Shown: positions 195 to 35,488 of the stretch, one piece after another
How positions within the stretch are numbered: the stretch's first letter is position 1
Layout of the letters: each line of letters starts with the position of its first letter
Virus genome (UHGV): UHGV-0392077
Origin: a virus
Direction: 5' to 3' (one strand)
DNA length: 38,618 nt
Program-made: the position numbers and the translations under genes
The notes under the pieces: model-generated
What the model was told of the DNA's origin: nothing
Seen by the model: only the letters and a program-made list of their open reading frames with translations
Database searches by the model: none

Positions 195-673
195 TCCTGA
201 CATTCGTAAAAGCATATTGGAAACAGTTGATTATCGTGTTGATGCTTGCTGTTCTGGTCATATCAGGAGTTGTTGCCTGGAATATACACGGCAGTCGTCA
301 GTACGACGCTGGGTATGCGCAGGCGAAGGAAGACCGCAAAGCTGAAGATGAGAGAGTTCGTCAGCACTACGAACAGGAGAAAGCGACCAATGAACGTGAA
401 GCTCAGCAGAGGATCGACCAGGCGCGCAATGATGCTCTTGATGCTGCCGCTCGCGCTGGCCGGTTGCAGCAACAACTCTTTGCCATCCGTGAGCAGCTCA
501 GGCAGTATAACGCCATTGTCGGCGCTGGGACGTCAGCCGCAGACACCGGAGTTTTGCTTGCCGACGTGCTCAGCAAATCTCTCGAGAGAAACAGACAACT
601 GGCAGAGTATGCTGACCGGGCAGCCGAAGCCGGAAGAGTCTGCGAAAAACAGTACGACACCCTGACCAGATAG
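191..673 (+). CDS. Rz: Rz-like i-spanin (inner-membrane spanin)
   Basis: ATG 191 overlaps the endolysin stop (ATGA). N-terminal TM helix (LIIVLMLAVLVISGVVAW) followed by a charged, coiled-coil-like periplasmic domain, with an embedded +1-frame lipoprotein gene: the classic Rz/Rz1 arrangement. Confidence 0.8.
   Translation: MILTFVKAYWKQLIIVLMLAVLVISGVVAWNIHGSRQYDAGYAQAKEDRKAEDERVRQHYEQEKATNEREAQQRIDQARNDALDAAARAGRLQQQLFAIREQLRQYNAIVGAGTSAADTGVLLADVLSKSLERNRQLAEYADRAAEAGRVCEKQYDTLTR
429..665 (+). CDS. Rz1: Rz1-like o-spanin (outer-membrane lipoprotein), embedded in the +1 frame of Rz
   Basis: ATG at 429 in the frame of ORF 246..665. Signal peptide MMLLMLPLALAGC with lipobox LAG|C, then a Pro/Ser-rich mature part. 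Only the distal part of the long ORF is taken as the gene. Confidence 0.7.
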   Translation: MMLLMLPLALAGCSNNSLPSVSSSGSITPLSALGRQPQTPEFCLPTCSANLSRETDNWQSMLTGQPKPEESAKNSTTP

Positions 674-846
674 CATGGCATTTTTCATGGTACTGATTTC
701 CGGTGACGGTATATAAAACGGTACGAGAAAAATTTATCTTTGGAAAAATGTTATCACTCAATTGGTTATGTTATCCGTAAATAATTGAGTGGGAATGATT
801 AACAGCTAACTCATAGCAAGTCATTCCTATTCAGATACTAACTCAA

Positions 847-878: not shown

Positions 879-933
879 TGTATTCATTTCTATTCACTCT
901 ACACCATATTTTTCGGCGGTACAGGTGACGGTA

Positions 934-948
934 TTACCTTAAAGGTAT
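934..948. promoter_or_regulatory. operator-like palindrome TTACC-ttaaa-GGTAT (imperfect copy)
   Basis: Matches the dispersed TTACC-N5-GGTAA motif; lies 43 bp upstream of the int start. Confidence 0.4.
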
Positions 949-990
949 ACTCTCATACCGTCATGAAAATGGTTTCTATACGGGTGAATT

Positions 991-4703: not shown

Positions 4704-5521
4704 ACGTACATATCCTGTTTGCGTGCCCACTCAGGGCGTTTAATAATTTCCACGCCGCCCCATTCATCGCTGATGCGGCATTCGTGATAGGTATTCAGAT
4801 CCCGGCGGAACAGAGCGTGCCCGGCATCGACATCCGGCGCATCCAGCTCGAACACGCGTACTGGATACCGACCACAATCAATGCTTTCGCTCACGGCAAG
4901 AAAGAAAAAACCATGCGGCTGACCAGTAACCCTCATTGCGCCTTCGCGGTACATTGCGTCCTGCACGTGGTAGCGGAATTCCTCGATGTGGCGTGCAAAA
5001 CGGTCCATATCTGCAACCTTTTTCACGTCGACGATCACGTTGTGCTCGTTCAGCCATTTGTCTGGACGAATGCGGCACAACTCACCAGTATCTTCATCGT
5101 TCCAGTACATTGATGCTTCGCAGTAACCAGGTGCTTCCAGCATCCAGCGTGCCGCCGGGTGAGCCATTGCGCTATCACGCATCAGCTCCAGTTTCCGCCA
5201 CTGCTCGGCATCAAGTACCGTAATCCCCATATCCGCCACATCACGAAGAAATGCCTCTTCGTCAGCTTTACCTTGTTTCGTCCGACGTTCGAATTTCGGT
5301 GAAACAATGAAGCGTTTGTCGAACTCTCCAGGCTCCAGAAGCAGACAGTGCAATGCGGTTCCCATATCCAGTGCAGACTTTTTCTCTTCGTCTTCTGGTG
5401 CTGCCTGAACCCATTTAAGAAGCGCCGGATTCTTGGCAACCATGTCCAGTTGCGATTTACTCACGCCGTCACCGGCGTGGTAGTCTTCGTTGCTGATGTC
5501 GAAATAAATTCCCGCTTTCAT
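4700..5521 (-). CDS. RecE-like 5'-3' exonuclease (PD-(D/E)xK superfamily), partner of the annealase
   Basis: 273 aa; N-terminus GIYFDISNEDYHAGDGVSKSQL resembles RecE/exonuclease VIII-type domains; sits directly upstream of and is translationally coupled to the RecT-like gene. Confidence 0.6.
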   Translation of the reverse strand: MKAGIYFDISNEDYHAGDGVSKSQLDMVAKNPALLKWVQAAPEDEEKKSALDMGTALHCLLLEPGEFDKRFIVSPKFERRTKQGKADEEAFLRDVADMGITVLDAEQWRKLELMRDSAMAHPAARWMLEAPGYCEASMYWNDEDTGELCRIRPDKWLNEHNVIVDVKKVADMDRFARHIEEFRYHVQDAMYREGAMRVTGQPHGFFFLAVSESIDCGRYPVRVFELDAPDVDAGHALFRRDLNTYHECRISDEWGGVEIIKRPEWARKQDMYV

Positions 5522-5817
5522 GCCGCGTCCCTCTGCCCATCAATCTGATCAGCCAGATCCCAGCGGGCGATAATTGCCATTGCCTCGCGACGGTAGGCAT
5601 CCATCAGTTCTTCGAACTCAGGGCTGTCTTTAGCAGCCTCCAGTACTTCCTGACGAACGCCTTTGCCTGTTACAACGTCGAAAGTTGAGGACAGTTGATG
5701 AAGTCGGATGCTCTCAATCAGTTCAACTTGTCGGTCATATAGCTGTTCTGACAGGCGGTAGTCCTTGTCGAATGCCAGCATGATTTTTTGAAGATTTTTC
5801 TGCTGATTAACGTTCAT
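5518..5817 (-). CDS. hypothetical protein (99 aa), in the Gam-like position upstream of the exonuclease
   Basis: ATG at 5817 preceded by GGGAGGG; stop overlaps the exonuclease start. No recognisable motif. Confidence 0.5.
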   Translation of the reverse strand: MNVNQQKNLQKIMLAFDKDYRLSEQLYDRQVELIESIRLHQLSSTFDVVTGKGVRQEVLEAAKDSPEFEELMDAYRREAMAIIARWDLADQIDGQRDAA

Positions 5818-5819
5818 TA

Positions 5820-5972
5820 TCAGCCCTCCCATATCTCGTTATCGTTGGCTACATCGCGAGCTTCTTTGCTGACGAAAGCCCACTTAATGCCTTCCTGTAA
5901 GGTGCGGAACTTCCAGCTCATGAATCCGCATGCAGTAACGCAGTACCAACCGTTGATGATTTTCCACTGCAT
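5820..5972 (-). CDS. small hypothetical protein (50 aa), first ORF of the leftward operon
   Basis: Hand-translated: MQWKIINGWYCVTACGFMSWKFRTLQEGIKWAFVSKEARDVANDNEIWEG*. GAGGT 9 nt upstream of ATG 5972. Below the ORF-track size cut-off. Confidence 0.3.
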   Translation of the reverse strand: MQWKIINGWYCVTACGFMSWKFRTLQEGIKWAFVSKEARDVANDNEIWEG

Positions 5973-5991
5973 AACTTGTTACCTCGGTCTG

Positions 5992-6006
5992 TTACCGTTG
6001 AGGTAA
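5992..6006. promoter_or_regulatory. operator-like palindrome TTACC-gttga-GGTAA
   Basis: Perfect half-sites; between the leftward promoter candidate and the first leftward ORF. Confidence 0.5.
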
Positions 6007-6034
6007 TGATTATGCGTATCTGGTTTGATGTCAA
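6007..6034 (-). promoter_or_regulatory. candidate leftward early promoter (PL-like)
   Basis: Minus strand reads TTGACA (6034..6029) followed by CATAAT-like -10 (6014..6009); spacer is only about 14-16 nt, so exact hexamers are uncertain. Flanked by two operator palindromes. Confidence 0.35.
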
Positions 6035-6053
6035 TAGATATGAGTTAAAAAAA

Positions 6054-6068
6054 TTACCCATAAGGTAA
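6054..6068. promoter_or_regulatory. operator-like palindrome ATTACC-cataa-GGTAAT
   Basis: Perfect 17-bp palindrome (6053-6069). Confidence 0.5.
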
Positions 6069-6079
6069 TCGCATAGGCA

Positions 6080-6105
6080 ATAAAAAAGCCGCCATGAGGC
6101 GGCTT
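6080..6105 (-). terminator. rho-independent terminator of the repressor gene
   Basis: Minus strand: AGCCGCC-TCAT-GGCGGCT followed by TTTTTTATT. Confidence 0.6.
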
Positions 6106-6125
6106 ACTTACTGAAAAATATGATT

Positions 6126-6710
6126 TTATTGTTTGCTTTTTTCGTTCTGGTTGATGACAAATTCAATGTAACTTTCGATCTTTGCCTTCTCTGTTTCAGG
6201 TAACAATGCGTAGCGCGAGCGATCATAGTTGATAGTCGCAGGGTCGTGCGGGTGAATCAGTAATTCATAGCCGTGACGCCCGAATGCGGATGCAACATTC
6301 TCCAGGGTGGAAATGGAAACGCTGACTTCATTGTTTAACAGGCGGCTGATTGTCACCTGGGCGACGCCGGATGCGCGGTGAAGTTTTCCCTGTGTTGAAA
6401 GGTCGCGGCTTTCGCTCATCCAGCGTTCCAGGTTGTGAGCCGCCAGCTGACCAATGTCGCTTGGGCCGACAGGCTGAAACCCCTCCTGAGAAAGCGAGCG
6501 ATCGATATCAAGCCAGTTACGGGGTTTATTGGCGGCAGCTTCAATTTTTCGCGCAACCTGGTCGCCGATAACCTTCTTGCCAAGAGCCCAGCGGTTTACC
6601 AGATTTGCCTGAGTTCCAAGTTTTTCTGCCATCCGCGTCTGAACACCATTGAATTCACGGTCGATCAAGTCGTTGAGATTTTGCCTGCGGACGTCCTGGA
6701 TACTTTTCAT
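6126..6710 (-). CDS. phage repressor (CI-like), two HTH-like segments, no S24 peptidase domain
   Basis: 194 aa; HTH-like segments GVQTRMAEKLGTQANLVNRWALGKK and GVAQVTISRLLNNE; no Ser/Lys autoprotease signature. Divergent from the Cro-like gene across an operator cluster. Confidence 0.65.
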   Translation of the reverse strand: MKSIQDVRRQNLNDLIDREFNGVQTRMAEKLGTQANLVNRWALGKKVIGDQVARKIEAAANKPRNWLDIDRSLSQEGFQPVGPSDIGQLAAHNLERWMSESRDLSTQGKLHRASGVAQVTISRLLNNEVSVSISTLENVASAFGRHGYELLIHPHDPATINYDRSRYALLPETEKAKIESYIEFVINQNEKSKQ

Positions 6711-6765
6711 TTTCTGGAAAATCGCCTCATATATGAATCAGTAGATGATTCAATTTAAAGCAATA

Positions 6766-6780
6766 TTACCCAACAGGTAA
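6766..6780. promoter_or_regulatory. operator-like palindrome TTACC-caaca-GGTAA (site 1 of the divergent-promoter cluster)
   Basis: Perfect half-sites in the repressor/cro intergenic region. Confidence 0.55.
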
Positions 6781-6782
6781 AT

Positions 6783-6797
6783 GCACCTCATAGGTAA
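6783..6797. promoter_or_regulatory. operator-like variant GCACC-tcata-GGTAA (site 2)
   Basis: Right half-site perfect, left half degenerate; a near-identical GCACC-tcaaa-GGTAA occurs at 7151-7165. Confidence 0.4.
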
Positions 6798-6803
6798 CTA
6801 TCC

Positions 6804-6835
6804 TTGATTTTTGTTACCTTATGGGTGAATATTTA
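6804..6835 (+). promoter_or_regulatory. candidate rightward early promoter (PR-like)
   Basis: TTGATT at 6804-6809, then an A/T-rich -10 candidate around 6828-6835; operator site 3 lies in the spacer. Confidence 0.35.
6814..6828. promoter_or_regulatory. operator-like palindrome TTACC-ttatg-GGTGA (site 3)
   Basis: Same TTACCTTAnnGGTGAAT variant as the site at 9115-9129. Confidence 0.5.
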
Positions 6836-6864
6836 TTATCTGAAATAAATATCAGGCAATAGCT

Positions 6865-7095
6865 ATGAGCGATAACGGACATTTCGATTTCAAAAAGCAC
6901 TGGCTTGCACTTACTCCGGATGAGCGTGAAGCCTTCGCACAGGAAGCCGGAACGACGAGTCACTATATCCAGACTCACTTAACAGGTAAGCGCAAAATGC
7001 CAGGTAAAGTATTGATGAATGGGCTTTTTAAAGCCTGTAAAACAAGACAATGGCTGCGCTCAAAAGCAGAACTGGCATACTTCTTCTACTCATGA
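6865..7095 (+). CDS. Cro-like HTH DNA-binding protein (putative)
   Basis: 76 aa, first gene of the rightward operon, divergent from the repressor; segment EREAFAQEAGTTSHYIQTHLTGKR is HTH-like. Confidence 0.5.
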   Translation: MSDNGHFDFKKHWLALTPDEREAFAQEAGTTSHYIQTHLTGKRKMPGKVLMNGLFKACKTRQWLRSKAELAYFFYS

Positions 7096-7116
7096 TATCC
7101 AGCTACAACCCTCTGT

Positions 7117-7142
7117 AGACCGCCACCTGGCGGTCTTTTCAT
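7117..7142 (+). terminator. rho-independent terminator after the Cro-like gene (tR1-like)
   Basis: AGACCGCC-ACCT-GGCGGTCT followed by TTTTC. Confidence 0.5.
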
Positions 7143-7150
7143 ATCTATTC

Positions 7151-7165
7151 GCACCTCAAAGGTAA
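7151..7165. promoter_or_regulatory. operator-like variant GCACC-tcaaa-GGTAA
   Basis: Near-identical to the variant at 6783-6797; immediately downstream of the terminator. Confidence 0.35.
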
Positions 7166-7243
7166 TAAAAAACCAAATCTGGTTGATCAAATTTTCCAAT
7201 TGTGCAAAATATCCAATATCAATAACAAAAAGGGGCGGAAAAA

Positions 7244-7456
7244 TTGAAGATAGTAACCAGAATGGAGGCCGCAAAAGCCGGGTTAAATCGCTATTTCACA
7301 GGAAAGCGGTGCCGTCACGGCCATCTCTCTGAAAGGTATGTTCTGAACGGAACATGTGTTGAATGTGCAATGAATAGCGCCAACCGCCATCGTAATGAAT
7401 TTGCTTGTGCACTAAAGAGTGCAAGAGGGGAAACCTATGGCAAGCAGCTGGATTAA
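7244..7456 (+). CDS. small Cys/His-rich (zinc-ribbon-like) protein
   Basis: 70 aa from TTG 7244 (AGGGG upstream); contains C-x-H-G-H ... C-x-E-C. Confidence 0.4.
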   Translation: MKIVTRMEAAKAGLNRYFTGKRCRHGHLSERYVLNGTCVECAMNSANRHRNEFACALKSARGETYGKQLD

Positions 7457-8267
7457 GGTTGAAGTTATCACTCCTGATAAACCTGAAATTTTTCAGATAG
7501 CAGAAATTCTGGGTATTGATCCAGATGCTGTTCTTGGAAAGCTGGTTCGTATATGGGCATGGGCTGACCAGCAAACAATAGACGGTAACGCTGGCAGCGT
7601 TACAAAAGGAGTACTTGATAGACTCGCTTTTATTACAGGATTTGCTGACGCCCTCATTAGCGTCGGATGGCTTGCTTATCATGACGGCAAACTAATTCTT
7701 CCAAACTTTGAGCGACACAATGGAGAATCATCGAAAAAACGTGCACTTACGAATAGAAGAGTGGCAGAGCATCGAAAACGAGTAACGCAAAAAGTAACGC
7801 CAACAGCGTTACAAAAGGAGTTACCAGAGGAAGAGGAAGAGGAAGATATATATAAAACCCCACACATAGCGCACGTGCGCGAGGGTGCTCCGACCAGTGA
7901 AGCGAACGGTATGCCGTTGCAGGTGGCTGAACCTGAATTTCTGGATGGCCTGAGTGAACCCATCGGGAAATTTCCGATGACCGATGGCTGGCATCCGTCG
8001 CCGGATTTTCGACGGCGTGCTGCGCTGTGGGGAACGGCCCTGCCGGAACCGGAATTTACACCTGCTGAACTTGCTGCATTCCGGGATTACTGGATGGCTG
8101 AGGGCAAAGTGTTCACGCAGGTTCAGTGGGAACAAAAATTCGCCAGGCACGTAAATCATATCAGGGGAAAATCAAAAAACGCCGGGAAAAGCGATGAGCT
8201 TGACTGGAATAACACTGACTGGATAGAAGGGGTGTGGGATGAAATCAACTCCAGAACTTCTCAATGA
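7437..8267 (+). CDS. replication initiation protein with DnaT-like C-terminal domain
   Basis: C-terminus GKFPMTDGWHPSPDFRRRAALWGTALPEPEFTPAELAAFRDYWMAEGKVFTQVQWEQKFARHV closely parallels the E. coli DnaT C-terminus as I recall it. ATG 7437 with SD-like AGAGGGG. Iteron-like repeats lie inside the gene. Confidence 0.7.
   Translation: MASSWIKVEVITPDKPEIFQIAEILGIDPDAVLGKLVRIWAWADQQTIDGNAGSVTKGVLDRLAFITGFADALISVGWLAYHDGKLILPNFERHNGESSKKRALTNRRVAEHRKRVTQKVTPTALQKELPEEEEEEDIYKTPHIAHVREGAPTSEANGMPLQVAEPEFLDGLSEPIGKFPMTDGWHPSPDFRRRAALWGTALPEPEFTPAELAAFRDYWMAEGKVFTQVQWEQKFARHVNHIRGKSKNAGKSDELDWNNTDWIEGVWDEINSRTSQ
7585..7860. repeat. iteron-like repeats plus AT-rich tract: candidate replication origin inside the initiator gene
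   Basis: GTAACGCT/AGCGTTAC inverted pair at 7585-7603; AGTAACGC at 7781 and 7793; 17-bp direct repeat AGCGTTACAAAAGGAGT at 7596-7612 and 7805-7821, read in different codon phases; then GAGGAAGAGGAAGAGGAAGA and TATATATAAAA (7845-7857). Confidence 0.35.
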
Positions 8268-9052: not shown

Positions 9053-9067
9053 TTACCTATCAGGTAA
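9053..9067. promoter_or_regulatory. operator-like palindrome ATTACC-tatca-GGTAAT
   Basis: Perfect 17-bp palindrome in the 117-bp gap after the P-like gene. Confidence 0.5.
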
Positions 9068-9114
9068 TAAAATATTCTAAACTCTATTGATTTCGTGTCT
9101 TATGTGGTTTTTAA

Positions 9115-9129
9115 TTACCTTAGAGGTGA
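9115..9129. promoter_or_regulatory. operator-like palindrome TTACC-ttaga-GGTGA
   Basis: Overlaps the SD region 4 nt upstream of ATG 9133. Confidence 0.45.
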
Positions 9130-9538: not shown

Positions 9539-10060
9539 ATGGAAAGTAATATCAAAGGGTTAGTTGCCGCCGGGCATGAGATGGCTTCGGAACTGAAAGC
9601 AGAATGTGGTGCCGTTGATATGCGTAGTGTGGCAAAGCTGCTCAGCGATTTTGCAACGCAACTGGAAGTGCAACTGGTGCGTGCTAATGCGCTGGCTGCG
9701 GAGAATGCGGGGCTGAAGTCGAACCTGATTTGCTGGGGCGGCGAAGATTCAGGGGCTGTCAGAAGTCCGCTTGATTACGCCCGTGCAGCCGGGCTGGAAT
9801 CTGGAGAGGAGTTTGAGATGCAAGTGGCAGCCAGAATGCCGAACCTGACTTATCGCGTTGTGTCGAATTCCCGATTCAGAACAACAATAGAACTGGTTGA
9901 CGGATCATTGCCGGAAACCCCAGCCACCAATGCTTTTCTGGCTGAAGTACGGGCGCAGGGGGTTGAGATGATGCGCGAACACCCATCAATCAAACTTTGC
10001 TCTTTGACGCACATATGTGACGAGTTCGCCGCCCAGCTTCGCAAAGGAGGCAACCAGTGA
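9539..10060 (+). CDS. hypothetical protein
   Basis: 173 aa ORF with an SD-like GAGGG upstream; no recognisable motif. Confidence 0.45.
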   Translation: MESNIKGLVAAGHEMASELKAECGAVDMRSVAKLLSDFATQLEVQLVRANALAAENAGLKSNLICWGGEDSGAVRSPLDYARAAGLESGEEFEMQVAARMPNLTYRVVSNSRFRTTIELVDGSLPETPATNAFLAEVRAQGVEMMREHPSIKLCSLTHICDEFAAQLRKGGNQ

Positions 10061-10683
10061 GCAAGATTGACTATCAGGCACTGCGTGAAAAGGCAGAGAA
10101 AGCAACGTGTGGGGTGTGGTCGCTCGAATATGGAGAGAGCCGATTTGATTGTGATGATGCGCTAATTCATCGTGACGTTGTTGGATATCTTCCCATTTGC
10201 AGAATTGAAGGAGCGCATCCAGAAAGCGGTTTCGATGAAGATTTCCAAATGGAACAGCAGGCCAATGCTGAATTCATCGCCGCAGTCAATCCAGCTACCG
10301 TCTTGGCGCTGCTGGATGAACGGGGAATCCCAAAACAAGCTATTGCAGAACTGGAGAAAAGCGAAGAGCAACTCATTAACGAGCGTGACCATGCTGAGTC
10401 TGCTTTAGATGATATGTACTTTGCAGCAACCGGTAACAGGCCGGAGTGGAGCAACTGGTTCGGCTTTTCAGATGCTGTCGATGCCGTGGTTGACAGAATT
10501 GCTGATTTAGAAGCTCAACAGCCATCGCCAGTAGTACCGGAAGGACTGGTTAAAGCAGTGCGCTTCTATGAACAGGTTAAGCGTGAAAATCCGCCAGTCG
10601 AAACCGGAGCATGGAAAGACGCTGTTGACTGGGTGCTCAAAGAGGCTTGCCAGGTTGTAAACACTGGCATCAAAGGAGAGTGA
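10057..10683 (+). CDS. Ead/Ea22-like protein (putative)
   Basis: GTG 10057 overlaps the upstream stop (GTGA) and follows AAAGGAGG. N-terminus IDYQALREKAEKATCGVW and acidic coiled-coil-like middle resemble Ead/Ea22-family prophage proteins. Confidence 0.45.
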   Translation: MSKIDYQALREKAEKATCGVWSLEYGESRFDCDDALIHRDVVGYLPICRIEGAHPESGFDEDFQMEQQANAEFIAAVNPATVLALLDERGIPKQAIAELEKSEEQLINERDHAESALDDMYFAATGNRPEWSNWFGFSDAVDAVVDRIADLEAQQPSPVVPEGLVKAVRFYEQVKRENPPVETGAWKDAVDWVLKEACQVVNTGIKGE

Positions 10684-10684
10684 T

Positions 10685-11200
10685 ATGGCGTTAACACACC
10701 GCGAACTCTGTCAGATTGCGTACAAGTTCCTTAAGCGCAACGGTTTCAAGGTTTGTTTTCATGACCGCTTTATAGCTGTAACCAGTACCGGAGAACAGCC
10801 AGATGCTATGGGATTCAGAAATTCAGCATCATGCCTGATAGAGGCGAAGTGTTCTCGTGCTGACTTGTTAGCAGATAGAAAAAAGCGTTTTCGTAAAAAT
10901 CCGTCTCTTGGAATGGGCGACTGGCGATTCTTTATTAGTGAGCCGGGAATTATTTCAATTGAGGATTTACCACCTGGCTGGGGATTACTTCACGTTGTTA
11001 ACGGAAGAGTACGGAAAGTACATGGGTGGCCCAAGGGTAATTGCTGTTGGGGTAATCCTGACGATAAGCCATTTACTGGGAATAAGCAGGTTGAATGCGA
11101 TTACATGTTATCTGCATTAAGGCGCATGGAGTTGAGAGGGCACCTTAATGAAATATATGACGGTGTAATTGTTAATAAGAAAGAAGGAAACGCGGCATGA
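10685..11200 (+). CDS. hypothetical protein with PD-(D/E)xK-like motif
   Basis: 171 aa; D...IEAK arrangement (DAMGF...CLIEAKCS) suggestive of a restriction-endonuclease-like fold; unverified. Confidence 0.4.
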   Translation: MALTHRELCQIAYKFLKRNGFKVCFHDRFIAVTSTGEQPDAMGFRNSASCLIEAKCSRADLLADRKKRFRKNPSLGMGDWRFFISEPGIISIEDLPPGWGLLHVVNGRVRKVHGWPKGNCCWGNPDDKPFTGNKQVECDYMLSALRRMELRGHLNEIYDGVIVNKKEGNAA

Positions 11201-12081
11201 TCACTATTACCAATAGCAAACTAACAGACGAATACGTTTCAAATGCAACGTTGATTCGGCTCATTCTGTGGGCTGACCAGCACAATAGCCATTATGTTGT
11301 AGCGGCTCTGCGCGAGCTACAGGAGCGCCGCAAGGCTGATAGTGTGCCTGTAGAAGTCAACGACGACATGGCTTACGCATTCCATCACGCACTGTCAGAT
11401 TCATCGCTAGGCGCTGATGAAGTAGAGGAAATTAAGGCCGGTTTGCGTGCTGCCTTTGCCAATGTCACCGTCCAGCCGGTGCTGATAGTGCCGGATGAAA
11501 TCGAGCCAGACGATAGCAATACGTTTGATTATGTTGATGGCTGGAACGCCTGCCGCGCCGCCATGCTTCAGGCTGGAAACTTTCGGGAAAATAAGGATTC
11601 GCCAACCAATAATTTTCGGGAAATCTCGGAAACGTCAACCAACTATCCGGTAATTCCTAGTGAGGTGTTGTCCGCAATCCAGAAGGTTGCCAAGATTCGT
11701 GCCGATTTCGATGATTTTGACGGTGACAGGCGAGGTATCGGTGATTGTCTGGATGAGGCTGAGCAAGAGCTTATCGTTACCATTAACAAATATGCCAGTC
11801 AGTTGGCAGCAGAACCTATAGCGCCTAATGACGTTCGAGAGCAGACAGCCATTCCGCAAGTTCCGGTAACTCCGGATAGTTGGATAAGCTGTAGTGAGCG
11901 AATGCCAGATGATGGTCAGCACGTAATTATTTTATGTGATGGCGCATTCGTTCTTTATGCGCAATATCGAGACGGTGAGTTTTTTGATGTTGTCCGCAAT
12001 GGTGAGGAGTTCTTCGAAACGCAGAGCCGCAATGTAACCCACTGGATGCCGCTACCAGAACCGCCGCAGGAGGTGAAGTGA
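11197..12081 (+). CDS. Ead/Ea22-like protein with DUF551-like C-terminus (putative)
   Basis: 294 aa; C-terminus WISCSERMPDDGQHVIIL...YAQYRDGEFF...THWMPLPEPP resembles the DUF551 module common in prophage early regions. Confidence 0.45.
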   Translation: MITITNSKLTDEYVSNATLIRLILWADQHNSHYVVAALRELQERRKADSVPVEVNDDMAYAFHHALSDSSLGADEVEEIKAGLRAAFANVTVQPVLIVPDEIEPDDSNTFDYVDGWNACRAAMLQAGNFRENKDSPTNNFREISETSTNYPVIPSEVLSAIQKVAKIRADFDDFDGDRRGIGDCLDEAEQELIVTINKYASQLAAEPIAPNDVREQTAIPQVPVTPDSWISCSERMPDDGQHVIILCDGAFVLYAQYRDGEFFDVVRNGEEFFETQSRNVTHWMPLPEPPQEVK

Positions 12082-13242: not shown

Positions 13243-13257
13243 TTACCACAACGGTAA
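13243..13257. promoter_or_regulatory. operator-like palindrome TTACC-acaac-GGTAA (plus imperfect TTACC-acggt-GGTTA at 13261-13275)
   Basis: Between the terminator and the terminase small-subunit start. Confidence 0.5.
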
Positions 13258-13274
13258 CAATTACCACGGTGGTT

Positions 13275-13871
13275 ATGATGCCTGCTGAACCTAAAACCTA
13301 TAAACGCAAATCAACGCAATTTAAGCCGCTCACAGCAATGCAGGAGGCTTATTGCCAGTCATACATCAAAACGCCTGAAAACCAGACTCAGGCAGCGATT
13401 AACGCAGGATTCTCCCCAAATACAGCGGCAGTTAAAGCCAGTGTCATGATGCGCGATGAACGCATTCAAAAACGGATTGCCGAGCTGATGGAAGAGCGCA
13501 ACAAACGAATGCGCGTCAGTGCCGATTACGTTCTCATGCGCCTGGTGGAGATCGACCAGATGGACGTGATTGATATCCTCAACGACGATGGGAGCCTTAA
13601 GCCAATCCGCGAGTGGCCGAAAATCTGGCGCACTACGCTTAGTGGCTTTGATCTGTCATCGACCATCATGAACATGAACGAGGATTCGATAGAGACAATC
13701 CTCAAAAAAATTAAATGGCCTGACAAGGTGAAGAACCTCGAACTGATTGGTAAGCACGTCGACGTCAACGCATTCAAAGAACGCCTGGATGTTAATGTGA
13801 ATGTGACAATTGCTGATCGCATAGCGGCAGCCAGGAAGCGACTCAAAGAACGTCAGGATGGTAATCAGTGA
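13275..13871 (+). CDS. terS: terminase small subunit
   Basis: LTAMQEAYCQSYIKTPENQTQAAINAGFSPNTAAVKASVMMRDERIQKRIAELMEER matches the HTH-containing small-terminase pattern (Terminase_2/P27-like, as recalled). Start moved to ATG 13275 because the ORF-track N-terminus translates the terminator and operator. Confidence 0.7.
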   Translation: MMPAEPKTYKRKSTQFKPLTAMQEAYCQSYIKTPENQTQAAINAGFSPNTAAVKASVMMRDERIQKRIAELMEERNKRMRVSADYVLMRLVEIDQMDVIDILNDDGSLKPIREWPKIWRTTLSGFDLSSTIMNMNEDSIETILKKIKWPDKVKNLELIGKHVDVNAFKERLDVNVNVTIADRIAAARKRLKERQDGNQ

Positions 13872-15433: not shown

Positions 15434-15808
15434 TTATTGCTCGCTTAACTTCTGCTTCAGCAAGTAACCTTCAAGTATCCAGATTTTGTTTACAGCATTC
15501 TGCCGGGCAATCTTCCGACCAATTTCCGCATCAAAGTTTTCCGGGCTTGCACAGGCGCTCTCTCCGGTGACGGTGAAGCCATTCTTCAGTACCAATACGC
15601 AGAAAGTGAGAAGGTGCAGAGCATCAGGGGTGGCTTCAACATAAGGCTCCGGATTATAAATAAGGTCATCTTCTTTAGCCTGGTGGTCACCCTGCGCAGC
15701 AGTGAAAAAATGCTCACTGCAAATGAGGCCTTCAATTTTCTCAGGTGTTACACGCGGTGCCGTTTTGCCTTTCTCAACGATTTCTTTTTCGATTTGCTGG
15801 TCGTTCAT
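15434..15808 (-). CDS. hypothetical protein (124 aa), moron gene antisense to the late operon
   Basis: ATG 15808 preceded by AAGGTGAG; transcribed opposite to the flanking terminase and portal genes and bracketed by hairpins. No confidently recognised motif. Confidence 0.55.
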   Translation of the reverse strand: MNDQQIEKEIVEKGKTAPRVTPEKIEGLICSEHFFTAAQGDHQAKEDDLIYNPEPYVEATPDALHLLTFCVLVLKNGFTVTGESACASPENFDAEIGRKIARQNAVNKIWILEGYLLKQKLSEQ

Positions 15809-16405: not shown

Positions 16406-16420
16406 TTACCTGAAAGGTAA
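16406..16420. promoter_or_regulatory. operator-like palindrome TTACC-tgaaa-GGTAA
   Basis: In the non-coding region upstream of the portal operon; the flanking GGTAATAATTTG is repeated again at about 16478. Confidence 0.5.
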
Positions 16421-33190: not shown

Positions 33191-33739
33191 TTACTTTTCT
33201 TCAGGTTTGTTGTCTTCAGATTTCTTCTTGATGCTTGGTTTTTGTCTAAGAACGAAAATACCAGCCACTGCAACAACTGTACCGATCACTGTGCCTGCTA
33301 GAACTTCATGACCTGTTAAACCTAATAATGTTGCACAAGCTACTGTAAAAATAGTTGCACTCAGGCCAAACCACTGCCCACGTTTATCTCTATTAATAGC
33401 CCCGTCAAGTGCCTTTTCCTCCATTTTCTGGCGGTGAGCAAACTCCTTCTCCGTCAGCTGGAAGATGCGTTCGGGGGCATCAGGTAAAATATCCTGATAC
33501 CCGCGAAGCAGATAAGGGGGAGGAAGCGGACCCTGAAACGCATGGTGAGCGACAACTATCTCCTGAATTTCAGGGCGATCAAGAACTCTTGTGAAGGCAT
33601 CTGGGTGTTGAATGATCTCGTTACTTAGCCCTTCCTCAACTTCCTCGAACTCAGTTTCTTCGTTATCACTTGGTTGCCCAATAGATTTTTGCATATTTGT
33701 CGAAGGACATTCCTTTAGCTTCTGGTTTTCCTCTTGCAT
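33191..33739 (-). CDS. hypothetical membrane protein (possible superinfection-exclusion protein)
   Basis: Acidic N-terminal region and two C-terminal TM helices (WFGLSATIFTVACATLLGL; VLAGTVIGTVVAVAGIFVL). The true start may be the internal ATG at 33694. Confidence 0.5.
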   Translation of the reverse strand: MQEENQKLKECPSTNMQKSIGQPSDNEETEFEEVEEGLSNEIIQHPDAFTRVLDRPEIQEIVVAHHAFQGPLPPPYLLRGYQDILPDAPERIFQLTEKEFAHRQKMEEKALDGAINRDKRGQWFGLSATIFTVACATLLGLTGHEVLAGTVIGTVVAVAGIFVLRQKPSIKKKSEDNKPEEK

Positions 33740-33992
33740 TTGAGTTTTTCCCTGTCACTATTGCCCATTTTCCGCCAGCAGGCGCTGCAATTTTTTTTCC
33801 GTTCTTTACTATATATTCAGCATAAACACGATTTTCTGACCGTCTGAGATCGTCTCCGACCATATTCATGTCTCTTGATATAACTTTGACGACAGAGTCT
33901 CGGTTTAAAGCCTTGGCATAGTTGGAGCCAGGAACGATACCCAAAGGGGTGCCAGACTCTATAGCCAGCTCCTTGACATATCTTCTGCTCAT
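33666..33992 (-). CDS. hypothetical protein (108 aa)
   Basis: ATG 33992 with GAGGT 5 nt upstream; overlaps the start of the downstream membrane-protein gene; operator site lies just upstream. Confidence 0.4.
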   Translation of the reverse strand: MSRRYVKELAIESGTPLGIVPGSNYAKALNRDSVVKVISRDMNMVGDDLRRSENRVYAEYIVKNGKKIAAPAGGKWAIVTGKNSNARGKPEAKGMSFDKYAKIYWATK

Positions 33993-34013: not shown

Positions 34014-34028
34014 TTACCAATCGGGTAA
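34014..34028. promoter_or_regulatory. operator-like palindrome TTACC-aatcg-GGTAA
   Basis: Perfect half-sites between ant and the 108-aa gene. Confidence 0.5.
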
Positions 34029-34113: not shown

Positions 34114-34824
34114 TCAGAAGAACCCAGCCTTGTCGTTGATGTACTCCGCGTGTGTCTGGATATCACGCAGGCATTTGCTCACACCGACGATGTAGCAGAA
34201 CATGGTGGTCAGCTCCGCCGCCGCGCCCGATACGTCGTGCCCGTCTTCCTGTAACTGGTTCAGCAGATTCATCAGCAGTGAGTGCTCCGTCAGGCCGAGA
34301 ACACCAGACGGCGAATGAATCAGGCTACGGTAGCCGGGCTTCAGTGGGGCACTGTAGGTTTTGTTCTCTATCTTCATTGCCTGCATTACTGCTGACGCCG
34401 TGGCGTTGGCTACCTGGTCGGCAACCATCTTTATGCGTTCTTCCTGCGGTAGCGAGTTTTTAATGTAACTTCCGGTGCGGCGGATCTGAGGAAGAACCTC
34501 ACCTGTAACCCATTTGCGAAAGCGGTAGGGGATAGTGCCTGGTGTCACTGCGTCGCGGCAGCGGAGGATCAGTGTGTAGAGGCCTGACTCGGAGATGATG
34601 TTGATCTCTTTTACTCGGCTATCAAAAATTGCACGATGTTCATGCCCTATGTTGAACATAGACCTTTCATCATCATCCAGTTTTTCAAGTGCTTGGGTGA
34701 CGTTTTGGATACGCAGCGCACTACAAACGTCTTGGGCTACAAACCATGGTTGGCCATCGATAATGATGGAACGGATAGGGTTAACAGATTCAAATTTGAA
34801 GATGGCAGTTTGAGCATTAGCCAT
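34114..34824 (-). CDS. ant: antirepressor, Bro-N domain (Ant-like)
   Basis: N-terminus FKFESVNPIRSIIIDGQPWFVAQDVCSALRIQNVTQALEKLDDDE matches the Bro-N / P22 Ant-type domain. ATG 34824 with GGAG upstream. The C-terminal domain is paralogous to gene 35140..35397. Confidence 0.7.
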   Translation of the reverse strand: MANAQTAIFKFESVNPIRSIIIDGQPWFVAQDVCSALRIQNVTQALEKLDDDERSMFNIGHEHRAIFDSRVKEINIISESGLYTLILRCRDAVTPGTIPYRFRKWVTGEVLPQIRRTGSYIKNSLPQEERIKMVADQVANATASAVMQAMKIENKTYSAPLKPGYRSLIHSPSGVLGLTEHSLLMNLLNQLQEDGHDVSGAAAELTTMFCYIVGVSKCLRDIQTHAEYINDKAGFF

Positions 34825-34842
34825 GGTGGTTATCTCCACTTA

Positions 34843-34856
34843 GTGATTTTAATCAC
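34843..34856. promoter_or_regulatory. 14-bp palindrome GTGATTTTAATCAC upstream of ant (candidate operator)
   Basis: Perfect inverted repeat GTGATT/AATCAC, 19 bp upstream of the ant start codon; distinct from the TTACC-N5-GGTAA family. Confidence 0.4.
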
Positions 34857-34979
34857 CACCGCAACGCCAATTACTGGTGGTGAACTGGACAAGGTTGGCG
34901 TACCGGCCTAAGTGGTACCGGCGTCCTTTCGGACCCCTGCCCAGCCCACCATAATTCGGATATGGCTGTGCTTAACGCA

Positions 34980-35003
34980 TAAAAAAACCACGTCTGGCGT
35001 GGT
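34980..35003 (-). terminator. rho-independent terminator after the small LexA-boxed gene
   Basis: Minus strand ACCACG-CCAGA-CGTGGT followed by TTTTTTT. Confidence 0.6.
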
Positions 35004-35093
35004 ATGCGCCACTTAGTAACTCGGGACGCCAATCCCGGCACTGGATTTTGCCAGTACCCGATTACTATGGCACAAGAGGAGTGCGATGTAAAT

Positions 35094-35108
35094 TTACCGC
35101 AAAGGTAA
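35094..35108. promoter_or_regulatory. operator-like palindrome TTACC-gcaaa-GGTAA
   Basis: Between the stop of the small gene and its terminator. Confidence 0.5.
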
Positions 35109-35139: not shown

Positions 35140-35397
35140 TTATCTGGTTTGTTTTCGTAATTGTTCGGCACAATAGTCGAGATGTGTTTGCAGATCCTGC
35201 ATAGACATCTGTGAGCTGGTGACGTAGTTAATCAGTGCAGTCAGTTCGGCAAGTGGGCCATCGACATTAAATCCATCCTTATCGAGATCCCGGAGTAATT
35301 TCATCAAGTGCGATCCCTCCACTAGTGATCTGACGCCTCCCGGCGTGTGAATCCTTTCGGTAAATCCGTCTTCCAGTGGATAGTGATACTGCTGCAT
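35140..35397 (-). CDS. small protein (85 aa) paralogous to the Ant C-terminal domain; candidate SOS-inducible antirepressor
   Basis: Aligns by eye with the Ant C-terminus (IHTPGGVRSLVEGSHLMKLLRDLDKDGFNVDGPLAELT...DLQTHLDY versus IHSPSGVLGLTEHSLLMNLLNQLQEDGHDVSGAAAELT...DIQTHAEY). Start set at ATG 35397 because the ORF-track extension to 35520 translates the LexA box. Confidence 0.55.
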   Translation of the reverse strand: MQQYHYPLEDGFTERIHTPGGVRSLVEGSHLMKLLRDLDKDGFNVDGPLAELTALINYVTSSQMSMQDLQTHLDYCAEQLRKQTR

Positions 35398-35416
35398 CTT
35401 ATCTTCTCCATGCAAT

Positions 35417-35436
35417 AACTGTATATTTATACAGTA
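35417..35436. promoter_or_regulatory. LexA (SOS) box
   Basis: AACTGTATATTTATACAGTA is CTGT-N8-ACAG with an AT-rich core, close to the E. coli consensus TACTGTATATATATACAGTA; 22 nt upstream of the small gene's ATG. Confidence 0.7.
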
Positions 35437-35473: not shown

Positions 35474-35488
35474 TTACCCGAAAGGTAA
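35474..35488. promoter_or_regulatory. operator-like palindrome ATTACC-cgaaa-GGTAAT
   Basis: Perfect 17-bp palindrome between the LexA-boxed promoter and the tailspike gene. Confidence 0.5.

What the first reader, a model, noticed from the sequence alone, without database searches (positions are those of the whole stretch)
5992..6864. Immunity switch: dual-HTH repressor without autocleavage domain beside a three-site operator cluster
The repressor (6126..6710) has two HTH-like segments and nothing resembling an S24 (LexA/CI-type) peptidase domain, so RecA-stimulated self-cleavage is unlikely. The 154-bp divergent region to the Cro-like gene carries three operator-like sites (6766, 6783, 6814) interleaved with a TTGATT -35 element, reminiscent of lambda OR1-3. 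Two further sites (5992, 6054) bracket a TTGACA-containing leftward promoter beyond the repressor terminator, like an OL/PL equivalent. With no cleavable repressor, induction would have to go through an antirepressor, and such a gene is present under a LexA box at 35140..35436.
Basis: partly seen in the sequence, partly recalled or inferred. Interest (0 to 1): 0.6.

Follow-up and report, generated by a model that had tools for sequence, protein, structure and literature searches.

The report
Known LexA–antirepressor phage immunity switch
This is the lysogeny switch of an epsilon15/phiV10-type E. coli phage: a non-cleavable repressor is switched off by a small LexA-controlled antirepressor, a mechanism already solved in the sister Salmonella phage SPC32H, so the finding is correct but not new.

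Summary
The window is a complete Uetakevirus (epsilon15/phiV10-like) genome.

- **Repressor.** The 194-aa protein (6126..6710, minus strand) is a full-length homologue of Salmonella phage SPC32H Rep (PDB 5D50/5D4Z, E 3.5e-42). It is all-helical and has no S24 peptidase domain.
- **Antirepressor.** The 85-aa ORF at 35140..35397 is 88% identical to SPC32H Ant. A near-consensus SOS box (35417..35436) lies in front of it.
- **Operators.** They share TTACC-N5-GGTAA. Three lie between rep and the cro-like gene, and two bracket a TTGACA-17-AATCAT leftward promoter.

- The motif has 9 perfect copies genome-wide against 0.04 expected, and 8 of 9 are intergenic. Their positions are conserved in five diverged relatives. 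The epsilon15 GenBank record already labels the equivalent sites "repressor".
- The second HTH-like segment is, by homology, a dimerisation domain rather than a second DNA-binding domain.
- A second antirepressor cassette lies next to ant: isrK sRNA, C4 antisense RNA, and a Bro-N protein with an Ant-like C-terminus. It sits behind its own operator.

Interest is low to moderate. The only partly new angle is the genome-wide operator network and the two-tier antirepression.

The parts
6126..6710 (-). rep: prophage repressor, 194 aa. N-terminal HTH DNA-binding domain (~1-70), disordered linker (~63-80), middle HTH-like dimerisation domain (~89-152), C-terminal tetramerisation/Ant-binding region (~153-194)
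   Evidence: ORF. Pfam HTH_3 x2 and no S24. PDB 5D50_A E 3.5e-42 over residues 1-190. 43% identity to SPC32H Rep. AF2 model all-helical. Foldseek top hits 5D50/5D4Z. Domain names from PMC9986798.
6086..6105 (-). rho-independent terminator of rep
   Evidence: 8-bp stem with 6 GC pairs plus a T run. Same position as the terminator annotated in phiV10.
6766..6780 (.). operator OR-a, TTACCCAACAGGTAA (perfect)
   Evidence: half-sites invariant in 5 phages
6783..6797 (.). operator OR-b, GCACCTCATAGGTAA (2 mismatches), 17 bp from OR-a
   Evidence: 17-bp spacing conserved in all five phages
6814..6828 (.). operator OR-c, TTACCTTATGGGTGA (1 mismatch). It lies in the spacer of the rightward promoter and abuts its -10.
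6804..6832 (+). probable PR: -35 TTGATT (6804-6809), 17-nt spacer, -10 GAATAT (6827-6832)
   Evidence: TTGATT is invariant in 5 phages, and the -10 aligns with AATAAT of SPC32H (read by eye). The scan tool instead reports the overlapping TTGTTA-17-TATTAT at 6811-6839. The transcription start is not mapped.
6865..7095 (+). cro-like gene, 76 aa
   Evidence: phrog_35 'transcriptional repressor' E 5.6e-13. No Pfam or PDB match.
7151..7165 (.). operator behind the cro-like terminator (7117-7136), GCACCTCAAAGGTAA, upstream of TTGATC (7183-7188) and ORF 7244..7456
   Evidence: Equivalent sites in SPC32H (~34779), Tyrion (35365) and BUCT711 (6032).
5992..6006 (.). operator OL-1, abutting the -10/+1 of PL
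6006..6034 (-). PL: -35 TTGACA (6034-6029), 17 nt, -10 AATCAT (6011-6006)
   Evidence: promoter scan, 10 of 12. TGTCAATAG is invariant in 5 phages.
6054..6068 (.). operator OL-2, 19 bp upstream of the PL -35 and 62 bp from OL-1
9053..9129 (+). third early promoter module, downstream of the replication-gene terminator: operator 9053-9067, -35 TTGATT 9087-9092, -10 TTTAAT 9110-9115, operator 9115-9129 overlapping the RBS of the DUF1064 gene (ATG 9133). The operators are 62 bp apart.
   Evidence: Promoter hexamers read by eye.
13243..13275 (.). operator pair 13243-13257 (perfect) and 13261-13275 (1 mismatch), between a terminator (13207-13233) and the likely true start of the small terminase gene (ATG 13276/13279)
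   Evidence: Equivalent pairs in epsilon15 (12/30, first labelled 'repressor' in GenBank), SPC32H and Tyrion.
16406..16420 (.). operator upstream of the head/portal operon
   Evidence: Equivalent sites in all four relatives; labelled 'repressor' in the epsilon15 record.
34014..34028 (.). operator between the Bro-N gene and ORF 33666..33992
   Evidence: Overlaps the scan's TTAAAA-16-TAAAAT minus-strand promoter-like site.
34114..34824 (-). second antirepressor candidate: Bro-N domain (17-112) fused to an Ant-like C-terminal domain (~153-236)
   Evidence: Pfam Bro-N E 1e-19. phrog_130 'anti-repressor Ant' and phrog_450 shared with small Ant. 42% identity to small Ant. 81% identity to ZX5 ORF4, whose overexpression lowered lysogeny (PMC9782041).
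34873..34956 (-). C4 antisense RNA (RF01695)
   Evidence: 66 bits against a gathering score of 45, full model
34981..35057 (-). isrK Hfq-binding sRNA (RF01394) with its terminator (35003-34987)
   Evidence: 63.5 bits against a gathering score of 50, full model. Terminator.
35094..35108 (.). operator abutting the -10 of a minus-strand promoter-like site (TTGCAA-17-TATATT, 35136-35108) that would drive isrK-C4-BroN
   Evidence: Equivalent site in Tyrion (21393).
35140..35397 (-). ant: small antirepressor, 85 aa
   Evidence: 88% identity to SPC32H Ant. PDB 5D50_E E 4e-47. Divergent from the tailspike gene as in SPC32H.
35417..35436 (.). LexA (SOS) box AACTGTATATTTATACAGTA, 18 of 20 to consensus, 20 bp upstream of the ant start codon
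   Evidence: Conserved in the relatives. The SPC32N G>T mutation falls in the homologous box.
35474..35488 (.). operator in the ant/tailspike divergent region
   Evidence: Labelled 'repressor' at the equivalent epsilon15 position 19895-19911.
934..948 (.). operator-like site TTACCTTAAAGGTAT (1 mismatch) between the att core (784-800) and int. Ambiguous, because it sits inside a larger inverted repeat TGACGGTAT...ATACCGTCA.
   Evidence: (same sequence type in all five phages). An integrase site (26873-26882) annotated in the epsilon15 record abuts/overlaps the equivalent site (26882) there.

Best explanation
This is the immunity switch of a Uetakevirus (epsilon15/phiV10-type temperate podophage). 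It is orthologous to the Rep/Ant/LexA switch worked out for Salmonella phage SPC32H.

**In the lysogen.** Rep binds 15-bp palindromic operators (TTACC-N5-GGTAA) through its N-terminal HTH domain. It assembles into tetramers through its middle and C-terminal domains.
- The operators sit on PR (three sites).
- They bracket PL (two sites, 62 bp apart).
- They bracket a third early promoter with the same 62-bp geometry.
- They precede the terminase, head and tailspike operons.

Rep therefore holds down every lytic transcription unit directly. Rep has no peptidase domain and cannot be cleaved with RecA's help. Host LexA instead sits on an SOS box overlapping the promoter of a small gene, ant.

**On DNA damage.** LexA is cleaved and Ant is made. 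Ant binds the C-terminal part of Rep and takes the tetramer off the DNA.

**Reinforcing layer (inferred).** In this phage a second layer probably reinforces the decision. A Rep operator guards a promoter for an isrK-C4-BroN cassette whose protein ends in an Ant-like domain. Loss of Rep would then release more antirepressor.

**Shown here:** the homologies, motifs, positions and conservation.
**Inferred:** Rep binding to each site, looping across 62 bp, and the feed-forward role of the Bro-N protein.
For: **Rep.** It is homologous to SPC32H Rep over its full length (5D50_A, E 3.5e-42; 43% identity overall; 54% in the DNA-binding domain and 51% in the C-terminal region). No S24 domain is found. 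The AF2 model is all-helical, with two helical domains and a disordered linker. The top Foldseek hits are 5D50 and 5D4Z.

**Ant.** It is 88% identical to SPC32H Ant and matches PDB 5D50_E at E 4e-47. It is syntenic, divergent from the tailspike gene.

**SOS box.** It lies at 35419-35434 and is conserved. SPC32H and SPC32N differ at only two bases, and one of them is in this box.

**Operator motif.** There are 9 perfect copies against 0.038 expected, 8 of 9 intergenic, P = 4e-8. Positions are conserved in SPC32H, epsilon15, Tyrion and BUCT711, while the central 5 bp and the flanks have diverged. The 62-bp spacing holds in 9 of 10 promoter-bracketing pairs and is 63 bp in the tenth. The epsilon15 GenBank record labels the equivalent sites 'repressor'.

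**PL.** The scan finds it at 10 of 12, flanked by operators.

**Experiments in near-identical phage ZX5.** Overexpressing Rep (99.5% identical) cut lysin and holin transcripts by more than 99.9% and abolished free phage. Overexpressing the Bro-N protein lowered the prophage titre about 1000-fold (PMC9782041).

**Literature on SPC32H.** Rep binds palindromic sites as a tetramer, and tetrameric Ant breaks it up (PMC9638917). The domain layout is DBD-MDD-CAD (PMC9986798).

**Second cassette.** isrK and C4 both score above their gathering thresholds. The Bro-N C-terminus is 42% identical to Ant. An operator abuts a predicted promoter.
Against: - No binding, transcript-start or cleavage data exist for this phage, so all operator assignments are by motif and conservation.
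- The operators in front of the late operons lie 25-40 bp upstream of any plausible -35 rather than over the core promoter, so simple occlusion does not explain them.
- PR and the rep promoter match the sigma-70 consensus only weakly. The scan prefers a different, overlapping hexamer pair for PR.
- The cro-like protein would be expected to use the same sites, so a site being conserved does not say which protein matters there.
- Rep's Ant-binding region is only 51% identical to that of SPC32H, although Ant is 88% identical. The interaction is likely but not shown.
- The primary SPC32H papers could not be read here. Their content is cited from memory and through papers that cite them.
Confidence: 0.85

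Rival explanations
1. The Bro-N protein (34114..34824), not the small LexA-controlled Ant, is the antirepressor that matters in phiV10-type E. coli phages. The 85-aa ORF would be accessory or redundant.
For: The ZX5 study annotated and tested only the Bro-N protein (81% identical). Its overexpression reduced lysogeny. It carries an Ant-like C-terminal domain.
Against: - The small Ant is present and highly conserved (58-100% identity) in all 35 matching phage records, including those that lack the Bro-N cassette (SPC32H, BUCT711).
- Only the small ant has an SOS box.
- Overexpressing the Bro-N protein reduced lysogeny but did not abolish it.
- The cassette is accessory: it is present in the window and in Tyrion, and absent from SPC32H and BUCT711.
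Confidence: 0.1
2. The TTACC-N5-GGTAA copies outside the rep/cro region are not repressor operators that block initiation. They could be sites for another factor, such as the cro-like protein acting during lytic growth or a late-gene regulator. Alternatively they could act as roadblocks ('stoperators') that stop read-through from upstream operons in the lysogen.
For: - Several copies sit just after terminators and well upstream of any core promoter (7151, 13243, 16406, 35474).
- Both late operons carry a separate conserved motif, CATATGTGGTT-N5-GGTAATA, closer to the genes, which suggests an activator-dependent promoter.
- Cro-type proteins normally share operators with the repressor.
Against: - The motif is the same as in the rep/cro divergent region and at PL, where repressor binding is the expected function.
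- At PL, at the third early promoter and at the isrK promoter, the site abuts the -10/+1, the classic position for repression.
- The roadblock idea still requires Rep binding, so it is a variant of the main explanation rather than a true rival.
Confidence: 0.2
3. Rep is a conventional SOS-cleavable CI/LexA-type repressor, and the antirepressor is irrelevant.
For: None found beyond the general lambdoid gene order.
Against: No S24 family match. All-helical model with no beta-rich domain. Full-length homology to a repressor whose structure has no peptidase domain.
Confidence: 0.01

Closest known systems
Salmonella phage SPC32H Rep / Ant / LexA antirepression switch (Kim & Ryu, J Virol 2013; Kim et al., PNAS 2016; PDB 5D4Z, 5D50)
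   Same: - Same genus (Uetakevirus) and same gene order.
- Rep is homologous over its full length, and Ant is 88% identical.
- The SOS box is at the same place in front of ant.
- The operator half-sites (TTACC/GGTAA) are the same, with the same positions and spacings (17 bp, ~30 bp, 62 bp).
   Different: - Rep is only 43% identical (34% in the middle domain).
- The central 5 bp of the operators are mixed here and A/T-rich in SPC32H.
- PL has two operators here against three in SPC32H and epsilon15.
- This phage carries an extra isrK-C4-BroN cassette next to ant that SPC32H lacks.
Escherichia phages phiV10, TL-2011b and vB_EcoP_ZX5 (Li et al., Pathogens 2022, PMC9782041)
   Same: The switch region is 98% identical in DNA, and Rep is 99-99.5% identical. 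In ZX5, Rep and the Bro-N 'anti-repressor' were tested by overexpression.
   Different: Those records and that paper do not annotate the small Ant (listed as 'hypothetical protein'). The text searches of the ZX5 paper found no mention of LexA, binding sites or the operators. The N-terminal third of the Bro-N protein differs (81% identity overall).
Epsilon15 GenBank annotation AY150271.2 (repressor binding sites)
   Same: It labels 'protein_bind: repressor' upstream of terS, upstream of the head operon, between gp19 (the Ant homologue) and the tailspike gene, at three PL sites, and after the replication gene. These are the same relative positions as window sites 13243, 16406, 35474, 5992/6054 and 9053.
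   Different: These are predictions only, with no sites marked in the rep/gp39 intergenic region. gp19 is left as 'hypothetical'.
Gifsy-1/Gifsy-3 and Fels-2 LexA-controlled antirepressors (Lemire et al., PLoS Genet 2011, PMC3121763)
   Same: Same logic: a non-cleavable repressor, with an antirepressor gene under direct LexA control located far from the immunity region.
   Different: The phage types differ (Sipho-/Myoviridae in the 2013 abstract, as I recall it). No sequence relationship was tested here, so the resemblance is functional.
Phage P1/P7 immI (c4-icd-ant) and the Gifsy-1 isrK-orf45-anrP locus (Hershko-Shalev et al. 2016, PMC4825925)
   Same: A C4-type antisense RNA and an IsrK sRNA precede an antirepressor-like gene. 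In P1 the operon also has an operator for the primary repressor (own knowledge).
   Different: - Here the cassette sits beside a LexA-controlled Ant.
- Its protein carries an SPC32H-Ant-like C-terminus.
- A translationally coupled upstream ORF like orf45/icd is not evident. Only a 20-codon TTG ORF (34830..34892) is present.
Repressors with operators scattered over the genome: P1 C1, mycobacteriophage L5 gp71 'stoperators' (own knowledge)
   Same: One repressor with many sites in short intergenic regions across early and late operons.
   Different: The proteins are unrelated. The sites here are palindromic, whereas those of L5 and P1 are asymmetric. About 15 sites occur here, against 17 or more in P1 and about 30 in L5.

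Membership tests
SPC32H-type Rep/Ant/LexA switch (Uetakevirus) | Repressor homologous to SPC32H Rep over all three domains (N-terminal DBD, middle dimerisation domain, C-terminal tetramerisation/Ant-binding domain) | tested here: met
   phmmer against PDB 5D50_A: E 3.5e-42, residues 1-190. BLASTP 43% identity over 199 columns. Foldseek top hits 5D50/5D4Z.
SPC32H-type Rep/Ant/LexA switch (Uetakevirus) | No autocleavage (S24) module in the repressor | tested here: met
   No S24 hit in Pfam at E <= 1. The model has helices only.
SPC32H-type Rep/Ant/LexA switch (Uetakevirus) | Small (~86 aa) Ant protein | tested here: met
   85 aa, 88% identical to SPC32H Ant. 5D50_E E 4e-47.
SPC32H-type Rep/Ant/LexA switch (Uetakevirus) | LexA box overlapping the ant promoter | tested here: met
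   At sequence level: CTGTATATTTATACAG at 35419-35434, 20 bp upstream of the ant ATG. Conserved. The homologous box carries the SPC32N mutation. The promoter itself is not mapped.
SPC32H-type Rep/Ant/LexA switch (Uetakevirus) | Palindromic operators at the rep/cro and PL regions | tested here: met
   TTACC-N5-GGTAA at 6766, 6783, 6814, 5992 and 6054. The same half-sites occur in SPC32H.
SPC32H-type Rep/Ant/LexA switch (Uetakevirus) | Rep stays intact during the SOS response; Ant binds Rep and releases it from DNA | not testable with these tools
   Needs a western blot, pull-down and EMSA.
Lambda CI / LexA-type autocleavable repressors | C-terminal S24 peptidase domain with a Ser-Lys dyad and a cleavage site in the linker | tested here: not met
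P1 immI / Gifsy-1 isrK-anrP type RNA-controlled antirepressor cassette | C4-type antisense RNA and/or IsrK sRNA directly upstream of an antirepressor gene on the same strand | tested here: met
   isrK 63.5 bits (gathering score 50) and C4 66 bits (gathering score 45), both full-length, minus strand, upstream of the Bro-N gene.
P1 immI / Gifsy-1 isrK-anrP type RNA-controlled antirepressor cassette | Small upstream ORF (icd / orf45) translationally coupled to the antirepressor gene | tested here: inconclusive
   Only a 20-codon TTG ORF at 34830..34892 ends 5 nt before the Bro-N ATG. ZX5 annotates a 37-aa 'ash family' ORF at the equivalent place.
P1 immI / Gifsy-1 isrK-anrP type RNA-controlled antirepressor cassette | Operator of the primary repressor at the cassette's promoter (P1 Op51) | tested here: inconclusive
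   Operator 35094-35108 abuts a predicted TTGCAA-17-TATATT promoter (9 of 12). No transcript data.

The most novel reading that the evidence does not exclude
Rep may be a genome-wide regulator rather than a lambda-style two-operator repressor. About 15 operators at about 9 loci would silence every lytic transcription unit directly.
- Rep tetramers would clamp promoters between two operators set exactly 62 bp apart. This geometry is conserved across the genus at two different promoters.
- The switch would be latched by a second, Rep-repressed and sRNA-gated antirepressor, a Bro-N protein with an Ant-like C-terminal domain.
- Induction would then be a two-step feed-forward process: LexA loss gives Ant, Rep loss then releases Bro-N-Ant, and the commitment becomes irreversible.

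As far as I could check, none of this has been tested experimentally.
Probability: 0.35. Interest if true: 0.5.

Novelty: already known. Interest (0 to 1): 0.25.

Why it matters
This is a textbook-quality example of SOS induction without repressor cleavage. It is common: 561 of 5426 complete E. coli genomes carry this switch region, and 469 viral contigs encode a relative of Rep.

The practical value is better annotation. In phiV10-type records the small Ant is still listed as 'hypothetical', and the Bro-N protein is taken for the only antirepressor.

The genome-wide operator layout with its fixed 62-bp clamp, and the two-tier antirepression, would give a compact system for studying repression by tetramer-mediated looping and how the decision to induce becomes irreversible. 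These are extensions of a known mechanism, not a new one.

Tried and rejected
- **Primary papers.** I tried to read the SPC32H papers (PNAS 2016, J Virol 2013) and the epsilon15 genome paper. None is held. I used citing papers, PDB entry names and GenBank annotation instead.
- **Covariation test.** I planned to test whether operators change with repressor specificity in relatives with diverged repressors. This was not possible, because all five phages (Rep identity down to 43%) keep the same TTACC/GGTAA half-sites and a conserved recognition-helix region. I used conservation of position and spacing instead.
- **Viral contig scan.** The scan for diverse Rep loci returned only copies that are 99-100% identical, which is uninformative.
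- **Cro-like protein.** Pfam and PDB sequence searches gave nothing. Only a PHROG 'transcriptional repressor' family matched.
- **rep promoter.** The scan finds nothing on the minus strand between 6711 and 6800. By eye there are only weak candidates, so I left it unassigned.
- **Other exact CTGT-N8-ACAG matches.**
  - 15876 is intergenic, upstream of a Gp49-family gene, but it is not conserved in relatives.
  - 20418 has a GC-rich spacer and is probably chance.
- **Site 934 upstream of int.** It is conserved in all five phages, but it always carries the same mismatch and sits inside a larger inverted repeat. An integrase site annotated in the epsilon15 record abuts/overlaps the equivalent site there. 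I did not count it as an operator.
- **Origin of the window.** I first assumed it was a prophage at guaA. In fact bases 1-783 are phage lysis genes, and the window is a circularly permuted attP-form genome.
Full report
**What the window is**

The switch region (5500-7500) is 98% identical to Escherichia phages vB_EcoP_ZX5, TL-2011b and phiV10, all of genus Uetakevirus, the epsilon15-like temperate podophages. It occurs in 561 of 5426 complete E. coli genomes.

From base 784 onward the window is identical to a prophage integrated at the 3' end of guaA in E. coli GN02350. Bases 1-783 are the phage's own endolysin 3' end and Rz gene. The att core ATTGAGTGGGAATGATT lies at 784-800. The window is therefore a complete, circularly permuted phage genome in attP form, cut inside the endolysin gene. 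All copies of any motif in the genome are in view.

**Checking the observation**

The ORF 6126..6710 (minus strand, 194 aa) is present.
- Pfam finds HTH_3 twice (best stretch 106-147), a Cro/YdaS-type HTH at 21-61, and no S24 peptidase.
- The rep/cro-like intergenic region is 154 bp.
Sites 5992, 6054 and 6766 are perfect, 6814 has one mismatch and 6783 has two.

The motif is far from chance.
- At up to two mismatches there are 43 matches against 10.5 +/- 3.0 in shuffles.
- There are nine perfect copies against 0.038 expected from base composition.
- Eight of the nine perfect copies lie in the 9% of the genome that is intergenic (P = 4e-8).
- The ninth (13243) lies between a terminator and what is almost certainly the true start of the small terminase gene. 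The PGAP start at 13197 runs through that terminator.

The promoter scan finds TTGACA-17-AATCAT on the minus strand at 6034-6006 (10 of 12). Operator 5992 abuts its -10, and operator 6054 lies 19 bp upstream of its -35. The scan also finds the rep terminator at 6105-6086. TTGATT at 6804-6809 is invariant in five diverged relatives. An exact CTGT-N8-ACAG with an A/T-rich spacer lies at 35419-35434.

One correction concerns the antirepressor ORF. It starts at 35397 (good RBS, PGAP start), not at 35436.

**What the proteins are**

Rep matches 'Repressor' of PDB 5D50 over residues 1-190 (E 3.5e-42), and its C-terminal half matches 5D4Z. These entries are named 'Rep-Ant complex' and 'Repressor from Salmonella-temperate phage', and the GenBank record of phage SPC32H names the genes rep and ant.
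- Identity to SPC32H Rep is 43% overall. It is 54% in the N-terminal domain, 34% in the middle domain and 51% in the C-terminal 40 residues.
- An AlphaFold2 model from 33 homologues has mean pLDDT 72. It contains only helices, in two helical domains separated by a disordered linker (63-80).
- Its best PDB matches are 5D50 and 5D4Z, followed by small HTH proteins. No peptidase fold appears.

The 85-aa ORF 35140..35397 is 88% identical to SPC32H Ant and matches chain E, 'Anti-repressor protein', of 5D50 at E 4e-47. As in SPC32H, it is transcribed divergently from the tailspike gene.

The SOS box is conserved in SPC32H, epsilon15 and Tyrion, and with one mismatch in BUCT711. SPC32H and SPC32N differ at only two bases. 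One of them is G>T in the CTGT arm of this box. This agrees with my recollection of Kim & Ryu (J Virol 2013): that mutation makes Ant constitutive and the phage lytic.

According to papers I could read:
- SPC32H Rep binds palindromic sites as a tetramer, and tetrameric Ant disrupts it (PMC9638917).
- Rep is built from an N-terminal DNA-binding domain, a middle dimerisation domain and a C-terminal tetramerisation/Ant-binding domain (PMC9986798).

In the near-identical phage ZX5 (Rep 99.5% identical), overexpressed Rep abolished free phage and reduced lysin and holin transcripts by more than 99.9% (PMC9782041).

**The operators are a genome-wide set**

Besides the rep/cro trio and the PL pair, the motif occurs at these places:

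| Site(s) | Location |
|---|---|
| 7151 | behind the cro-like terminator |
| 9053 and 9115 | after the replication-gene terminator, bracketing TTGATT-17-TTTAAT and overlapping the RBS of the next gene |
| 13243 and 13261 | before the small terminase gene |
| 16406 | before the head operon |
| 34014 | downstream of the Bro-N gene |
| 35094 | downstream of ant |
| 35474 | between ant and the tailspike gene |

I scanned four relatives whose Rep is 43-78% identical: SPC32H, epsilon15, Enterobacter phage Tyrion and Klebsiella phage BUCT711.
- The same loci carry the motif in nearly every case (only the terS-upstream site could not be located in BUCT711), although the central 5 bp and the flanking DNA have diverged.
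- Spacings are fixed. OR-a to OR-b is 17 bp in all five. OR-b to OR-c is 30-31 bp. The terS pair is 18 bp apart.
- The two promoter-bracketing pairs are 62 bp apart in nine of ten cases and 63 bp in the tenth.
- 62 bp is close to six helical turns. That would place both sites on one face of the DNA for a tetramer carrying two DNA-binding dimers. This is my inference. PMC9986798 likens Rep's C-terminal domain to DNA-looping tetramerisation domains and notes that Rep's repression mechanism 'has not been extensively characterized'.

The distributed sites are not a new observation. The current epsilon15 GenBank record marks 'protein_bind: repressor' at the equivalent positions upstream of terS, upstream of the head operon, between gp19 (the Ant homologue) and the tailspike gene, at three PL sites, and after the replication gene.

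**A second antirepressor layer next to ant**

Rfam places two RNAs on the minus strand between ant and the next gene. One is isrK (34981-35057, 63.5 bits, gathering score 50). The other is C4 antisense RNA (34873-34956, 66 bits, gathering score 45). Both match the full model.

They are followed by a 236-aa protein (34114..34824). It has a Bro-N domain and a C-terminal 82 residues that are 42% identical to the small Ant, in the same PHROG. It is 81% identical to ZX5 ORF4, and nearly identical from residue ~76 on. ORF4 is the 'anti-repressor' whose overexpression lowered the prophage titre about 1000-fold.

The layout is that of P1 immI (c4-icd-ant, own knowledge) and of the Gifsy-1 isrK-orf45-anrP locus. 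In Gifsy-1, IsrK acting in trans unlocks translation of the antirepressor-like AnrP (PMC4825925).

Operator 35094 abuts the -10 of a predicted TTGCAA-17-TATATT promoter that points into isrK. This suggests the cassette is itself under Rep control. If so, Ant-mediated loss of Rep would release a second antirepressor and form a feed-forward latch. This is inference only.

The cassette is accessory. It is present in the window and in Tyrion, and absent from SPC32H and BUCT711. The small Ant, in contrast, is present in all 35 matching phage records.

**How it most likely works**

1. In the lysogen, Rep tetramers occupy the operators.
   - At PR, one site sits in the promoter spacer and abuts the -10.
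   - At PL and the third early promoter, two sites clamp the promoter.
   - At the isrK promoter, one site abuts the -10.
   - At the late operons, one or two sites lie upstream.
2. LexA occupies the SOS box over the ant promoter.
3. DNA damage removes LexA and Ant accumulates.
4. Ant binds Rep's C-terminal region and strips it from the DNA, so all units are released together.

The homologies, motifs, positions and conservation are shown here. The binding events and looping are inferred from SPC32H and from geometry.

Open points:
- The rep promoter could not be located.
- The late-operon sites lie too far upstream for simple occlusion.
- Both late operons also share a separate conserved element, CATATGTGGTT-N5-GGTAATA. 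The Rep sites there may therefore act through looping, by blocking an activator, or as roadblocks to read-through.

**Verdict**

However, it describes a mechanism already established for a phage of the same genus. That work includes crystal structures of both proteins. The identical repressor has already been tested by overexpression in ZX5.

Novelty is 'already known'. The residual interest lies in two extensions, neither experimentally tested as far as I could check: the genome-wide operator set with its conserved 62-bp clamp, and the two-tier antirepression.

Noticed in passing
window 34873-35057 (minus strand): Two Rfam RNAs above their gathering scores, isrK (34981-35057) and C4 antisense RNA (34873-34956), sit between ant and the Bro-N gene. 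The layout is like P1 immI or the Gifsy-1 isrK-anrP locus. The same pair is present in Enterobacter phage Tyrion (L005 21171-21356) and absent from SPC32H and BUCT711.
   Followed up: partly
window 34114-34824 (minus strand): The Bro-N 'antirepressor' ends in an ~82-aa domain that is 42% identical to the small SPC32H-type Ant (shared phrog_450). This suggests that this subfamily of Bro-N antirepressors acts through an Ant-like Rep-binding module.
   Followed up: partly
window 16462-16484 and 35518-35540: A shared motif, CATATGTGGTT-N5-GGTAATA, lies upstream of the head operon and of the tailspike gene. It is conserved at the tailspike locus in all four relatives scanned and at the head locus in three of them (not matched in BUCT711). 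It is probably a late-promoter or activator site, and it is distinct from the operator although it contains a GGTAA half-site.
   Followed up: partly
window 13197-13279: The RefSeq (PGAP) start of the small terminase gene (13197) runs through a rho-independent terminator (13207-13233) and two operator copies. The true start is probably the ATG at 13276 or 13279, as in epsilon15, where terS starts after the sites.
   Followed up: partly
window 1-800 and 38183-38618: The window is a whole circularly permuted phage genome in attP form, opened inside the GH19 endolysin gene. The att core ATTGAGTGGGAATGATT is at 784-800. From 784 on, the sequence is identical to a guaA-integrated prophage of E. coli GN02350.
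   Followed up: yes
window 15876-15891: A second exact CTGT-N8-ACAG (CTGTACTGGTTTACAG) lies in the intergenic region upstream of the Gp49-family gene 15434..15808 (minus strand). It is not conserved in the four relatives, so it may be chance or a lineage-specific LexA site.
   Followed up: partly
window 925-965: The operator-like TTACCTTAAAGGTAT (934-948) upstream of int sits inside a larger inverted repeat, TGACGGTAT...ATACCGTCA. The same arrangement occurs in all five phages. An integrase site (26873-26882) annotated in the epsilon15 record abuts/overlaps the equivalent site there. Its role (Int arm site or Rep control of int) is unresolved.
   Followed up: partly
window 35140-35397 compared with 6126-6710: Ant is far more conserved across the genus (58-100% identity across the 35 phage records, 88% to SPC32H) than Rep (43% to SPC32H). 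Antirepressors of these phages may therefore cross-act on each other's repressors, as described for Gifsy prophages.
   Followed up: no
window 9932-12081: Several ead/ea22-region genes are annotated as frameshifted or truncated pseudogenes in the matching RefSeq prophage (locus L002).
   Followed up: no
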